A stretch of DNA of 37,907 nt from Tortispora ganteri (taxonomy: Eukaryota). The position numbers and the translations under genes were made by a program. Numbering within the stretch: the first letter of the stretch is position 1; each line of letters begins with the position of its first letter. Location of the stretch: contig PPNB01000027.1 of assembly GCA_003707115.1 (NCBI GenBank), forward strand, positions 62,001 through 99,907, written 5' to 3'. Positions 9,182 to 27,686 of the stretch are shown piece after piece. Below the pieces are notes generated by a model, which did no database searches, was not told where the DNA came from, and saw only the letters and a list, made by a program, of their open reading frames with translations.

Positions 9182-10393
9182 ATGTCATATTTTATACATA
9201 TCATGCACCAACAAATAATGAACACTATTGCTAATTCAATGAACATTATTCTCCATGCACCAGTCTTGGGGTGCTCGCAGCTTGCTACAGATCATCAAAA
9301 ACTTATCAATAGCGCGTTGTACGACCGTTCTCCTAAAAAGAAATCTAAACGTTCTAAGAAAAGCTGTAAAATGACTTCAAAGATTACCGCCAGATCTAAA
9401 ACTGTCCAGCAGACCCGCTCTGCTGACGTGAATACCCTGGCTGAACTACCCTACGCTAATTACAATATTGTCCGTGAGCTTACAAGAGGCAGAACACAAG
9501 ATATAACTAGAAGAAACAATTTGCGTCAGTTGCCTTACATGTATGCTGAGTTCTCTGCTTCTGTCTTCGAGAACCGCATCCTAATGAAACAACTGCCATT
9601 CTATGGCTGCCAAATGGACCACGTTGTCCACGATAATAAAGCCAACGATGGACTCCCTTACTATCGAAAAGACTTCGCTGCGGATTTTGATCTTGAGAGA
9701 ATTAATTCTCGAGATAATCTTCGTTTGATTCATGCTTTGCCATTCCAGGATCATGACATCGCTCTAGAATTTGGTCATGACAGCCACAGCGTCCAAAACA
9801 GATCATGGCTTAAACTTTTGCCGTATTTTACCCACAATTGGGATCCTGTTGTTTATTATAACAAAGAGAATGATGGATTGCCGTTTTATATGCGTGATTT
9901 TGCTTCCGATTTCGCTGAAGACAACAAGGACTCATCATTCAAGGCTTGCATGTTCAAGTACCTCCCTTTTCACTATTGTGATTTAGCACTAGAGTTAAGG
10001 GTTACAGCTGAAAGCGTCAAGGAAAGGAACAGACTGGATTCTTTTTGCAAAACGATCGGTTGCGAATTGCTGAGTATCGACAACACTCATATGTCCCTAA
10101 AACTGCTCAAGGAATTACCGTTCTACCGGTCCTGGGAGTCACCCACAGAGAATGACTGTTTGATCAAGAAACCTCGTTTGTTGGATTTAAACATGAATGA
10201 GCTTTTGATATCTCAACGTATAAGTCAAAAATGCACGACTGAAATGTTTTTCGACTATAAGGAACTTGACTGTCACTCCAAAGCGCAACAAGGCAAATGC
10301 AAGCCTCGCAAATATAAGCCTCACAAATGCAAGCCTCGCAAATGCAAACCTCGCAAATGTAAGCCGCGCAAATGCAAACGAAACACCAATTGA
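9182..10393 (+). CDS. Orphan protein with two tandem 75-aa repeats, recurring LP(F/Y) motifs and a basic Cys-rich (KCKPR)n tail; the real start may be ATG 9371
   Basis: 403-codon ORF with internal repeats at aa131-205 and aa206-280; no recognised domain. ATG 9371 has an AAA context. Confidence 0.65.
   Translation: MSYFIHIMHQQIMNTIANSMNIILHAPVLGCSQLATDHQKLINSALYDRSPKKKSKRSKKSCKMTSKITARSKTVQQTRSADVNTLAELPYANYNIVRELTRGRTQDITRRNNLRQLPYMYAEFSASVFENRILMKQLPFYGCQMDHVVHDNKANDGLPYYRKDFAADFDLERINSRDNLRLIHALPFQDHDIALEFGHDSHSVQNRSWLKLLPYFTHNWDPVVYYNKENDGLPFYMRDFASDFAEDNKDSSFKACMFKYLPFHYCDLALELRVTAESVKERNRLDSFCKTIGCELLSIDNTHMSLKLLKELPFYRSWESPTENDCLIKKPRLLDLNMNELLISQRISQKCTTEMFFDYKELDCHSKAQQGKCKPRKYKPHKCKPRKCKPRKCKPRKCKRNTN
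10294..10380 (+). repeat. 15-bp coding minisatellite CAAATGCAAGCCTCG x ~5.8, encoding KCKPR repeats
   Basis: Units read directly: caaatgcaagcctcg / caaatataagcctca / caaatgcaagcctcg / caaatgcaaacctcg / caaatgtaagccgcg / caaatgcaaacg. Confidence 0.95.
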
Positions 10394-15575: not shown

Positions 15576-16946
15576 TTAAATAGTGGATTTCTTAGTAAAT
15601 TGCAGATAGCAAGAGTTCGAAGATATGGCGGTGGTGTAGCGATCCAAAGGCCTAAAATCGCACTTAGATGCACCATCTGCAATGCGAGTGGAAAACTCAC
15701 CATATATTTTGCGAATAGTTAATCGCATAACTAGTAGAGCGAGATGCTGACCAACACACATGCGAGATCCGGCACCGAAAGGCATCATGTAGCTGTACAT
15801 TTCCTTTGATGCGTCTTTCCACCTGTAAGGATTAAACAATTCGGCATCTTTTCCAAAAACTCTTTTGACCCTGTGCAAAGAGTATGGCTGAACCGAAACG
15901 ACAGTACCAGGATTAATAAAATACGAAAGAATGAACAACCCTTTTTCACCAACGACTCTTGGCTCAGACCCAGGAATTGGCGAATGAAGACGCAGAGTCT
16001 CAAGGATGCACCATTCACAAAGATTATCCTTTGGTATGTCACGAGGATGAGTAAAGGTCGGTTCAGACTCTATAGTTCGCTGGAGGTCAGCCTGAAGTTG
16101 AGGATTTGAAGAAACCTCATAACAGAGAAATGTTAAGGCCAGAGCGGTAGTGTCGTGCCCCGCAGAGATATGGTCCATAGCCTCACTAGCCACGAACAAT
16201 TTAGATAATCCTGATTCTTTTAGCTTCTGGATTAAGGAAAACTGAGCTGGGCAGGCCCATGTCGAAGAAACCAGGTTGAGAAGCCATGAGTCTGTAAATG
16301 AGTATGCATTAGAAACTGCAGAAGTTGCGGGCACCCAAGGCGCATAGCTAGTGAAAAACCATCGATTAAATGCTACAGAAAACTTCTCATTAACTGCATC
16401 TAATTCGGCGTCTGCCGGTTGTGGAGCTGACGGTCCAAGAGTGACTGCTAGAGCGGCTCTCATTGCAAGACGTTTAAAGAGACTGAGAACATTGAGTGAT
16501 GGTTTATTGTGTGAAGCGTATGCAATTGAATAAGTAAGCTCATCCACTGCCAAAGAGACTGCAGGCGATATGTTATTAATAATGTTTGAATTAGAGTAGA
16601 GAATCTGGTAGCGAGCTCGCGAAGTTCTATGAGGAATTCTATGTTTGATGGAAAAGGCATTCGGGGTGTTGTAGTTCTCAAAATTGTAGAAGTCAGATTT
16701 GTCCAAGTTAGCAATGTATATAGACTTAACTGCGTCTATATGTAAAATAGAGACTTCATTGGGCGCAATCTGGACTACTGGGCCATAAAGGAGATGAAAA
16801 TCGTTGAGTTTGGCATTGCGTTTTCCGAGGAAGGCGTAGATAAGGCCGATATTTACAAATTTTGCTGCAAAAGGGCCTGGAGCAATATATTTAAGTTTGT
16901 AGATAAGCACAAAGAAAAGGAAAATTGTTGTTAAAGCGAGGATCAT
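15576..16946 (-). CDS. Cytochrome P450 monooxygenase (membrane-anchored; substrate unknown)
   Basis: The first ATG at 16946 gives MILALTTIFLFFVLIYKL (TM anchor); YGPVVQIAPNEVS, I-helix AGHDTT, ExxR ETLR, FNPYRW and heme motif PFGAGSRMCVG. The track's start at 16970 is a GTG. Confidence 0.93.
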   Translation of the reverse strand: MILALTTIFLFFVLIYKLKYIAPGPFAAKFVNIGLIYAFLGKRNAKLNDFHLLYGPVVQIAPNEVSILHIDAVKSIYIANLDKSDFYNFENYNTPNAFSIKHRIPHRTSRARYQILYSNSNIINNISPAVSLAVDELTYSIAYASHNKPSLNVLSLFKRLAMRAALAVTLGPSAPQPADAELDAVNEKFSVAFNRWFFTSYAPWVPATSAVSNAYSFTDSWLLNLVSSTWACPAQFSLIQKLKESGLSKLFVASEAMDHISAGHDTTALALTFLCYEVSSNPQLQADLQRTIESEPTFTHPRDIPKDNLCEWCILETLRLHSPIPGSEPRVVGEKGLFILSYFINPGTVVSVQPYSLHRVKRVFGKDAELFNPYRWKDASKEMYSYMMPFGAGSRMCVGQHLALLVMRLTIRKIYGEFSTRIADGASKCDFRPLDRYTTAISSNSCYLQFTKKSTI

Positions 16947-16951
16947 AATGG

Positions 16952-17584
16952 TTAGCGCGAAACGGGGCACAGGTACATAAGGAGCTGCCAGAGGGATATA
17001 ACGGTGTTGTGATTGTACAGCGGTAGATCAGGGCCTGCTAGACGTGCAGGATCTATTTCTAGCTGTTCAGTGTAGAAAGTAGGAGTATCTGCGTTAGAGA
17101 AGGAGCCGCTACCAGTTACTAATCTGGCTAGCGGGGTACGGTTTGGCGCAGAGTGTGGTTCGTTATCTAGGAAAGAGTAGAGGGCACAGTAAAGGGAGGT
17201 AAGGAGACGTTCAGCGAGGTCTGGAGAGGCCAATGGCCAATTGCTGAACGAAAGAATAGCTGGGGCAATAATCTGAGCAGTTTTGGCGTTAAGAGCGATG
17301 TAGTTGGTCTGTCTTGTGGTGGGCAGATCGATAAGAGGATTAGGCGGGGAGGAGGTGATTGTAGTGGGAGTTAGGGCCATGAGAAGGCACCTAGGAGCCA
17401 GAAGACGTCCCAGCTTGTCAAGTCTTATAGGGGCGGCGAGTATATGGGCGAACGAGGAATTATTTATTTTCTTTGAAAGAGAAGTATTTGCGCATGCATG
17501 AGGGATGCGGGATTGAGTAGGTAATTCTAGCGACAGGCTAGTCGGAATGACCGATTTCGGATGGTAGTATTTTGGTAGTCTCAT
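16952..17584 (-). CDS. RRG8: Probable Rrg8-like mitochondrial protein
   Basis: Basic N-terminus lacking acidic residues (MRLPKYYHPK). NNSSFAHILAAPIRLDKLGRLLAPRCLLMAL resembles the conserved N..(F/Y)A..LA(S/T)P(M/V)R...LL block I recall for Rrg8-family proteins; identity from memory only. Confidence 0.5.
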   Translation of the reverse strand: MRLPKYYHPKSVIPTSLSLELPTQSRIPHACANTSLSKKINNSSFAHILAAPIRLDKLGRLLAPRCLLMALTPTTITSSPPNPLIDLPTTRQTNYIALNAKTAQIIAPAILSFSNWPLASPDLAERLLTSLYCALYSFLDNEPHSAPNRTPLARLVTGSGSFSNADTPTFYTEQLEIDPARLAGPDLPLYNHNTVISLWQLLMYLCPVSR

Positions 17585-17663
17585 GCGGGTGGGTGTGTAG
17601 GTGGGAAGGTTAGGTTTTAATATTTGTGAAATTGATCTGATCTTTGTTTACACTTGACCAATA

Positions 17664-18029
17664 ATGGATCGAAACGCAACCCTGCAAGAAGCGTTTATGT
17701 TGCTGGATAGAGACATGGACGACGTTATTGGTAAAGATGATCTGGAACGTGTGATTGAGCCACTTGGACTGAAAGAATCTGCGGAGCAAATGCTTGGAGA
17801 TAGGAGCGATATGGATTTGATGTCGTTTATGAGCCTTCTAAATAAGAAACTATGGAAACAAACAGATATCGAAGACCTAAAAGAAGCATTTGAATCGATC
17901 TCGGTAAATGGATTAGTGCGTGTTAAAGATCTCCAAGGTGTAGACCTTACAGGGCTCGATGAATTCGTCGCAGTCAAAAACGGCGAAGAACATTTCCTTT
18001 ACAGAGACTTTTTAGAACAATTACATTAA
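17664..18029 (+). CDS. MLC2: EF-hand myosin II regulatory light chain
   Basis: LQEAFMLLDRDMDDVIGKDDL EF-hand, EDLKEAFE, and FLYRDFLEQL terminus; lies convergent to RPO26 as MLC2 does in S. cerevisiae. Confidence 0.75.
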   Translation: MDRNATLQEAFMLLDRDMDDVIGKDDLERVIEPLGLKESAEQMLGDRSDMDLMSFMSLLNKKLWKQTDIEDLKEAFESISVNGLVRVKDLQGVDLTGLDEFVAVKNGEEHFLYRDFLEQLH

Positions 18030-27319: not shown

Positions 27320-27686
27320 ATGGTAAGTAGATGGCCACATTAGTTCTCAAACCAATTAATGACTAACATTTATAGGCAGACAAATTACGTGATAAGCAGA
27401 ACTTGCAGTTGCTTCAGTCCAAACATATTGGAGTTGGACATGCGGACATCACTAGATAGTAAGTAGGAAACATACGAAATCCAATAGTAAATATGCATTT
27501 ACTAACTGCAACCTTTACAGCGAATGGGTGAATAATATTAAAAGAGATTCTTATGCGTCTTATATTGGCCACCAATCATTGTTAGATTACTTTACGGTTG
27601 CTTCTGGACAAACTCGCGCAGAGACGAAAGCTAAGTTTATAGAACAGATGGTTCAGCCAGTTGGTCCACCTCCTGCAAAAGATTGA
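27320..27686 (+). CDS. YSF3: SF3b subunit Ysf3/SF3B5; exons 27320-27322, 27376-27458, 27521-27686
   Basis: Spliced 83 aa: MADKLRDKQNLQLLQSKHIGVGHADITRYEWVNNIKRDSYASYIGHQSLLDYFTVASGQTRAETKAKFIEQMVQPVGPPPAKD. Introns: GTAAGT..GACTAAC..TAG (53 nt) and GTAAGT..TACTAAC..CAG (62 nt). Not in the ORF track. Confidence 0.95.

What the first reader, a model, noticed from the sequence alone, without database searches (positions are those of the whole stretch)
16940..17600. Second ultra-tight pair: RRG8-like gene and P450 separated by 5 nt, with all upstream ATGs in weak context
Seen: the upstream stop TAA (16954-16952) is followed by CCATT and the P450 ATG (16946, A at -3). The upstream start is CGC-ATG (C at -3). 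Only four internal ATGs occur in about 630 nt (17499, 17495, 17380, 16978), none in the roughly 400 nt from 17377 to 16979, and all four have a pyrimidine at -3. The one at 16978 opens an 8-codon in-frame mini-ORF ending 5 nt before the P450 start. As with SPC1-XKS1, a small housekeeping-type gene precedes a metabolic enzyme, and both gaps are 2 mod 3, so simple readthrough fusion is excluded. Inference: two such junctions in 38 kb, when the other tandem gaps here are about 150-830 nt, hint at a genome-wide operon-like system based on leaky scanning or termination-reinitiation. Caveat: this strand is G-poor, which lowers the expected ATG count.
Basis: partly seen in the sequence, partly recalled or inferred. 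Interest (0 to 1): 0.75.

Follow-up and report, generated by a model that had tools for sequence, protein, structure and literature searches.

The report
Abutting yeast genes, possibly one mRNA
In a small-genome yeast, a probable mitochondrial housekeeping gene stops five bases before an unrelated enzyme gene starts, one of a small class of such touching pairs, and its sequence suggests, without RNA proof, that ribosomes skip the first gene to make both proteins from one messenger RNA.

Summary
Every stated coordinate and ATG context is correct. Both ORFs are real: they match (85%, 91%) one Tortispora caseinolytica record that fuses RRG8 and P450 into a single protein. That fusion deletes the P450 membrane anchor and is probably a gene-prediction error. 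RRG8 identity is weak (below Pfam cut-off).

In 80 separate 10-kb genome samples plus the window, 6 of 154 tandem gaps are -4 to +8 nt and none is 9-43 nt. Outside the window it is 4 of 145 (3 with a secure start). So a tight class exists, but it is a 2-3% minority, not a genome-wide operon system.

Three tight upstream genes (this one, SPC1, an RF-1-domain gene) are the only 3 of 401 with a pyrimidine at -3 of the start and no purine(-3) internal ATG, the leaky-scanning signature of green-algal bicistrons. The other three are ATG-rich. With the protein held fixed, this ORF's ATG depletion is not significant (P 0.19-0.33).

Best reading: bicistronic mRNA with leaky scanning (0.45). Main rival: a P450 promoter inside the upstream ORF (0.35). 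No RNA data were available.

The parts
16952..17584 (-). ORF1, 210 aa, RRG8-like (probable mitochondrial protein; identity weak). Start context cgcATG, 6th percentile of starts in this genome
   Evidence: 85% identical over aa 1-181 to T. caseinolytica P0001 without gaps; PF17068 23.9 bits, E 3e-5, cut-off 27, aa 40-72; only RRG8 match in the genome; coding score 21.9/68.2; context score
16947..16951 (-). 5-nt inter-ORF spacer CCATT; supplies A at -3 of the P450 start
   Evidence: sequence
15576..16946 (-). Cytochrome P450, 456 aa, complete: hydrophobic N-terminal anchor, PGP hinge (aa 23-25), heme Cys397. Start context attATG, 71st percentile. Substrate and CYP family not assigned
   Evidence: PF00067 E 3.9e-38; 91% to P0001 aa 182-613; M1, P23-G24-P25 and C397 invariant in 13 aligned sequences
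17493..17499 (-). Two out-of-frame internal ATGs (17499, 17495), weak context, 11-codon uORFs
   Evidence: 8th and 6th percentile
17378..17380 (-). In-frame internal ATG (Met69), weak context; Leu in T. caseinolytica, whose aa 2-181 hold no Met
16952..16978 (-). In-frame ATG opening an 8-codon mini-ORF that shares the ORF1 stop; weak context
17585..17663 (.). 79-nt divergent intergenic region, presumed shared promoter; implies a very short ORF1 leader (inferred)
   Evidence: 14 of 124 divergent gaps are this short or shorter
17664..18029 (+). Divergent EF-hand gene, 121 aa (myosin light chain-like; that label is recalled)
   Evidence: EF-hand Pfam hits below cut-off; coding score
16877..17043 (-). 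167-nt stretch that the fused T. caseinolytica gene model must treat as an intron if the same join is mapped here (GTCTAG donor, GCTAAC over the ORF1 stop, first AG 74 nt later); probably not a real intron
   Evidence: join R181-P25 mapped; ends and GC 44%; intron-like motifs elsewhere
571..834 (-). SPC1 (87 aa), upstream gene of the window's other tight pair; no internal ATG, T at -3
   Evidence: PF06645 E 1.3e-19
2..562 (-). XKS1-like FGGY kinase (cut by the window end), starts 8 nt after the SPC1 stop, G at -3
   Evidence: PF00370 E 2.4e-4, below cut-off on the fragment

Best explanation
Two separate proteins are made from one capped mRNA by leaky scanning. SHOWN: two real, out-of-frame ORFs 5 nt apart, so no room for a terminator plus promoter between them; weak ORF1 start, only weak ATGs over 633 nt, strong P450 start. 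INFERRED: transcription starts in the 79-nt divergent promoter; part of the scanning 40S subunits initiate at the weak, cap-near ORF1 ATG (low-dose RRG8-like protein); the rest pass four weak ATGs and initiate at the P450 ATG; the mRNA ends after the P450. The spacer has no function of its own and has shrunk to near zero. A minority of this yeast's tandem pairs (SPC1-XKS1, RF-1-domain gene-FAR11) work the same way; other tight pairs do not. The partners share no pathway, so this is co-transcription under compaction, not a functional operon.
For: Joint signature (pyrimidine at -3 of start, no purine(-3) internal ATG) in 3 of 401 full-length genes, all three upstream members of tight pairs; length-matched controls 0 of 334, 6 of 432, 1 of 381; P(>=3 of 6) 4e-6, but only P 0.02 for the 4 pairs outside the window. 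The out-of-window RF-1-domain gene has no ATG in 468 nt (1 of 381 controls). All 5 downstream genes with a secure start have a purine at -3. Depletion covers whole ORFs, more than an internal promoter needs. T. caseinolytica ORF1 has no internal Met in aa 2-181. Same features as algal bicistrons: short ORF1, weak ORF1 Kozak, few ATGs (PMC11291117 passages). Genome keeps eIF3d and eIF3l, subunits lost in yeasts that use little leaky scanning (PMC7049704 passages).
Against: No transcript evidence at all. With the protein fixed, depletion is not significant for any of the three genes (out-of-frame ATG P 0.19, 0.22, 0.12), so amino-acid composition and a G-poor strand explain most of it. The signature was defined on this ORF (post hoc). 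Three of six tight upstream genes carry 7, 16 and 33 ATGs, so tight gaps arise without leaky scanning. The first 120 nt after the ORF1 stop score terminator-like (97th percentile of CDS starts) with TACATA at +207 and TATATA at +229, and the last 120 nt of ORF1 score promoter-like (98th percentile), though the whole strand here is G-poor. UPF1 is present, so a 1.4-kb tail behind the ORF1 stop could trigger decay. 0 of 8 LYR/Tfb5 genes, typical first cistrons in algae, are in tight pairs.
Confidence: 0.45

Rival explanations
1. Overlapping monocistronic transcripts: the P450 has its own promoter and start sites inside the ORF1 coding sequence, ORF1 mRNA is polyadenylated inside the P450 CDS, and the unused spacer eroded to 5 nt. 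ATG scarcity near the ORF1 end just keeps the P450 leader clean.
For: ATG-rich tight pairs (His-phosphatase to CWC24, RRN10-like to SPP2) most simply need this. Promoter-like and terminator-like scores at this junction, 98th and 97th percentile. Codon-level depletion not significant. Overlapping transcription is documented in microsporidia (PMC4654818 passages); fungal polycistronic genes are also independently transcribed (PMC4503453 passages).
Against: Does not explain the weak ORF1 start or ATG-free SPC1 and RF-1-domain genes over their whole length. The k-mer scores are positive along all of ORF1 and into the P450, so they mostly read low G and cannot tell promoter from leader.
Confidence: 0.35
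2. Termination-reinitiation: ribosomes finishing ORF1 (or the 8-codon mini-ORF) restart at the ATG 5 nt on; the near-zero gap is itself the functional element.
For: Gaps cluster at -4, -4, -1, 4, 5, 8 with none from 9 to 43, including ATGA and TAATG overlaps; would also cover ATG-rich pairs. Yeast can be selected to reinitiate on bicistrons (PMC11952965 abstract and Introduction).
Against: No shared 5- or 6-mer in the 90 nt before the six junctions beyond the null. A weak ORF1 start would lower both proteins. The same paper reports that yeast normally fails to translate downstream cistrons. Deletion bias alone can give near-zero gaps (inference).
Confidence: 0.12
3. A real spliced fusion as in the T. 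caseinolytica record: a 167-nt intron removes the ORF1 stop and the P450 anchor, giving an RRG8-P450 protein.
For: Public record ODV92846 is annotated this way; the same join is in frame here; GCTAAC lies over the stop (ends of 4 of 433 other genes). Precedent: Ldo45 joins two adjacent yeast genes by splicing (PMC8573964 Table 1).
Against: Donor GTCTAG differs from GTAAGT at all four positions after GT; branch-to-AG distance 74 nt; GC 44%. GTAAGT is the hexamer most often in a donor-branch-acceptor arrangement (93 of 363). The join deletes the anchor and invariant P23-G24 kept in all 12 homologues. No other fused relative among 49 P450 hits.
Confidence: 0.05
4. ORF1 is not a functional gene, only a long G-poor P450 leader.
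For: Only one relative among 1.84 billion representatives; Pfam match below cut-off; Atlas recognition low and no RRG8 cluster.
Against: 181 codons kept without gap or stop at 85% identity; positive coding score; sole RRG8 candidate in the genome.
Confidence: 0.03

Closest known systems
Green-algal bicistronic loci translated by leaky scanning (PMC7896298, PMC11291117; passages read)
   Same: Short ORF1 with weak start context, few upstream ATGs, strong ORF2 start, out-of-frame ORFs, unrelated partners, mitochondrial proteins frequent, occasional stop-start overlap.
   Different: Different kingdom; gaps here -4 to +8 nt against medians of 183 and 40 nt; no long-read, promoter-mark or reporter evidence here; LYR and Tfb5 genes are not first cistrons here (0 of 8).
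S. cerevisiae bicistronic transcripts, e.g. RTC4-GIS2, YOR302W-CPA1 (PMC8573964; first fifth of the text and passages read)
   Same: Yeast; 367 two-gene transcripts; CPA1 is reached by leaky scanning of an upstream ORF.
   Different: Mostly readthrough beside normal monocistronic mRNAs, with the second gene repressed; here the spacer is absent, so one of the two genes cannot have conventional flanks. No RTC4 match found in this genome (uninformative control).
Agaricomycete polycistronic transcription units (PMC4503453; passages read)
   Same: Fungal tandem pairs on one transcript.
   Different: Mean inter-ORF distance 364 nt, downstream genes independently transcribed, translation mode unknown.
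Overlapping transcription in microsporidia (PMC4654818; passages read)
   Same: Transcripts run into neighbouring genes in fungal relatives; model for the main rival.
   Different: Free-living yeast with median tandem gap about 307 nt; only a discrete minority is tight.
Drosophila dicistronic genes (PMC4528330; passages read)
   Same: About 2.5% of genes, mostly unrelated partners; only some pairs meet scanning requirements, as here.
   Different: Supported by cDNA; spacing not near zero as a rule (not checked).

Membership tests
Leaky-scanning bicistronic locus (algal type) | One mRNA spans both ORFs | not testable with these tools
   No RNA run was listed
Leaky-scanning bicistronic locus (algal type) | No separate promoter for ORF2 | tested here: inconclusive
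   k-mer model scores all of ORF1 as flank-like, confounded by low G
Leaky-scanning bicistronic locus (algal type) | Weak ORF1 start, stronger ORF2 start | tested here: met
   6th vs 71st percentile of 405 starts
Leaky-scanning bicistronic locus (algal type) | ATG depletion upstream of ORF2 | tested here: inconclusive
   9 of 334 length-matched controls as low, but P 0.19-0.33 with protein fixed
Leaky-scanning bicistronic locus (algal type) | Two independent, conserved proteins, not a readthrough | tested here: met
   Out of frame; 85% and 91% conserved; intact P450 anchor
Leaky-scanning bicistronic locus (algal type) | ORF2 output falls when ORF1 context is strengthened | not testable with these tools
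   needs a reporter assay
Termination-reinitiation junction | Stop and start within a few nt | tested here: met
   5 nt
Termination-reinitiation junction | Shared upstream tethering motif | tested here: not met
   No shared 5/6-mer above null in 6 junctions; nearest TGGGA 466 nt upstream here (the TGGGA motif is recalled; small sample)
Functional operon | Partners in one pathway | tested here: not met
   Six pairs have unrelated Pfam families
RRG8 family (PF17068) | Score above curated cut-off | tested here: not met
   23.9 vs 27 bits, profile positions 61-93 of 277; best and only match in the genome
RRG8 family (PF17068) | Mitochondrial location, needed for respiratory growth (PMC2768984 passages) | not testable with these tools
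   no targeting predictor or assay
Cytochrome P450, ER-anchored | N-terminal anchor, PGP hinge, ExxR, heme Cys | tested here: met

The most novel reading that the evidence does not exclude
Tortispora-type yeasts carry a few dozen abutting gene pairs, about a dozen or more of them obligate two-protein mRNAs read by leaky scanning, with the rest possibly read by reinitiation at ATGA/TAATG overlaps: a native fungal counterpart of algal bicistrons that gene predictors hide by fusing the partners.
Probability: 0.4. Interest if true: 0.75.

Novelty: new variant of a known kind. Interest (0 to 1): 0.52.

Why it matters
Efficient native translation of two full proteins from one mRNA is established in green algae but, in the papers read here, not in budding yeasts, where downstream cistrons are described as normally untranslated. 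A compact yeast with a discrete class of touching genes gives a small, directly testable set, and native spacers for multi-gene expression. It also flags an annotation trap: the public RRG8-P450 'fusion' is probably two genes, and an orphan yeast P450 is mis-modelled. If the internal-promoter rival is right, the case is ordinary compaction and worth about 0.3.

Tried and rejected
Relatives of ORF1: none at E<=0.01 among 492 candidates, only P0001 in the full library, none in metagenome contigs, no RRG8 cluster in the Atlas. SPC1 fused forms among longer proteins: none of 119 candidates (weak test). Distant P450 relatives in 80 metagenome loci: no ORF1 match; of 45 with enough upstream DNA one has an unvalidated 99-aa ORF at -1. 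Algal-type first cistrons: 0 of 7 LYR and 0 of 1 Tfb5 genes tight; RTC4 not found. Relaxed search for more tight pairs: 29 ORFs scanned, none of the small linking ORFs hit Pfam; it recovered one missed real pair at 44 nt. Rows set aside: the -110 pair (over-extended start; domain begins at aa 89); FBP26-XPF counted in the 6 but its Met20 aligns with human XPF's conserved start, which would make the gap 53. Uniform-density gap test loses significance outside the window after these corrections (P 0.16). RNA folding of ORF1: z -1.9, nothing distinctive. Stop readthrough rejected (out of frame). No structure prediction was run. Earlier scan findings: none. Supplements of PMC6723986 were not readable and might assign this P450 to a family. 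The whole genome could not be analysed; the census rests on 8.7% of it.

Full report
1. Observation. The minus strand holds a 210-aa ORF (17584-16952), the spacer CCATT and a 456-aa P450 (16946-15576). One addition: 17380 is also in frame.

2. Both genes are real and separate. The window is part of a 9.63-Mb assembly in 1044 contigs. The P450's best hit of 49 is a 613-aa Tortispora caseinolytica record carrying RRG8 and P450 domains (ODV92846). Its residues 1-181 match ORF1 at 85% without gaps and 182-613 match P450 residues 25-456 at 91%. So the two genes are adjacent in that relative too; its exact gap cannot be seen because only the protein is held. Mapped here, the join needs a 167-nt intron, 17043-16877, with donor GTCTAG and 74 nt from the GCTAAC to the first AG. 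A motif scan found GTAAGT most often in donor-branch-acceptor arrangements (93 of 363 occurrences); 58 of 61 listed intron-like matches lie outside called CDSs and are 40-130 nt (the listing was filtered for canonical donors and short branch-AG distance, and GTCTAG was not in the pattern). The join removes the hydrophobic anchor and P23-G24, invariant in all 13 aligned P450s. I read the fusion as a prediction error (0.05 left). RRG8 identity is only suggestive: 23.9 bits against a cut-off of 27, though the sole match in the genome; no other relative was found.

3. Is there a class of such junctions? I called genes with a codon model trained on the sample in 80 separate 10-kb stretches from four large contigs plus the window, 837,907 nt or 8.7% of the assembly. 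One real pair at 44 nt was missed by the caller. The four tight pairs outside the window join unrelated genes: RF-1-domain protein (156 aa) to FAR11 (ATGA), histidine phosphatase to a CCCH/RING protein (TAATG), RRN10-like to a G-patch protein (4 nt), and fructose-2,6-bisphosphatase to XPF (ATGA, but the true start may be Met20, gap 53) (the names FAR11, CWC24, SPP2, FBP26 are recalled from these domains). A null built from convergent and divergent gaps expects 1.15 junctions in -10..+10 (6 seen) and 3.51 in 11..40 (0 seen); outside the window P is 0.025 for 4 and 0.097 for 3. So the peak is probably real but modest: 2-3% of junctions, roughly 35-50 pairs if extrapolated. The window, with 2 of 9, is a high draw. 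Intron-containing genes may be under-called.

4. The ATG signal. Among 405 starts, -3 is A 46%, G 21%; the ORF1 start is at the 6th percentile and the P450 start at the 71st. Against length-matched genes ORF1 is unusual (<=4 ATGs: 9 of 334; no purine(-3) ATG: 3 of 334), but with its protein fixed and codons resampled it is not (P 0.19-0.33), and the same holds for SPC1 and the RF-1-domain gene. What survives is the joint pattern: pyrimidine at -3 of the start and no purine(-3) internal ATG occurs in 3 of 401 full-length genes, and all three are upstream members of tight pairs (P 4e-6 overall, post hoc; 0.02 for the four unselected pairs). SPC1 and the RF-1-domain gene have no internal ATG at all. 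The other three upstream genes have 7, 16 and 33 ATGs and cannot be scanned through.

5. Mechanism. With 5 nt between ORFs, either one mRNA carries both or the transcripts overlap. I favour a bicistronic mRNA from the 79-nt divergent promoter, read by leaky scanning (0.45), because the signature spans whole ORFs, includes the start codon and recurs independently. An internal P450 promoter is close behind (0.35): ATG-rich tight pairs show that tightness needs no scanning, and the junction flanks score promoter-like and terminator-like, although the scores follow low G along the whole region. Reinitiation (0.12) fits the gap sizes but no shared motif was found. These can coexist. eIF3d, eIF3l and UPF1 are present. 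Every step about transcripts and ribosomes is inferred; no RNA run was listed.

6. Comparison and novelty. It would work like green-algal bicistrons (PMC11291117 and PMC7896298, passages); membership is unproven because the defining single transcript is untested. Yeast bicistronic transcripts are known but mostly as readthrough with a repressed second gene (PMC8573964, part 1 of 5 and passages); PMC11952965 (abstract, Introduction) states that yeast normally does not translate downstream cistrons. Seven full-text searches (listings seen, only the cited papers opened) showed no report of tight or bicistronic pairs in Tortispora; the library lacks most subscription papers. A survey of yeast P450s lists the neighbouring T. 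caseinolytica P450 ODV92859 but not ODV92846 in its main text (PMC6723986, passages; supplements unseen). PMC10833146 and PMC2871058 (passages) added nothing specific.

7. Verdict. Observation confirmed; interpretation partly supported and scaled down from a genome-wide operon system to a small, mixed class of abutting genes, a subset of which looks built for leaky scanning. New variant of a known kind; interest 0.52.

Noticed in passing
L051 4934-9541 (G000:C557:674934-679541): Two tight pairs back to back on a 458-nt divergent promoter: RF-1-domain gene to FAR11-like (ATGA overlap, zero internal ATG) and histidine phosphatase to CWC24-like (TAATG overlap, 16 ATGs). A good paired test locus. 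The RF-1-domain ORF holds one GTAAGT at +346.
   Followed up: partly
window 16951-16956; L023 6302-6307: The stop codon lies inside a branch-point-like RCTAAC in 2 of 6 tight upstream genes against 4 of 433 other genes; post hoc, no canonical donor upstream in either.
   Followed up: partly
window 563-570; L023 6299-6302: SPC1-XKS1 and RRN10-SPP2 junctions share acgctATGtct around the downstream start.
   Followed up: no
window 17585-17647 (-): The ORF1 frame stays open 21 codons upstream of its ATG, with in-frame ATC/ATT/ATA codons; a near-cognate N-terminal extension is possible but the divergent gap is only 79 nt.
   Followed up: no
L060 3483-5020 (+): Methyltransferase gene 44 nt before a Ubl/CAP-Gly (tubulin cofactor B-like) gene; 16 upstream ATGs.
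   Followed up: partly
L063 4442-4979 (-): Two coding-scored frames overlapping by 8 nt (77 and 103 aa), no Pfam match; another tight pair or a frameshifted gene.
   Followed up: partly
window 9182-10393 (+): 403-aa ORF with no Pfam match, internal repeats and a C-terminal KCKPR repeat.
   Followed up: no
window 27322-27520 (+), 8638-8763 (-), 29266 (- strand index): Intron-like motifs and a coding-scored short exon suggest small spliced genes or 5' exons missed by ORF listing, so some window gaps are overestimated.
   Followed up: no
L002 (G000:C779:49056-49601): A second P450 lies about 28 kb from this one on the same contig (27% identity over aa 253-419).
   Followed up: no
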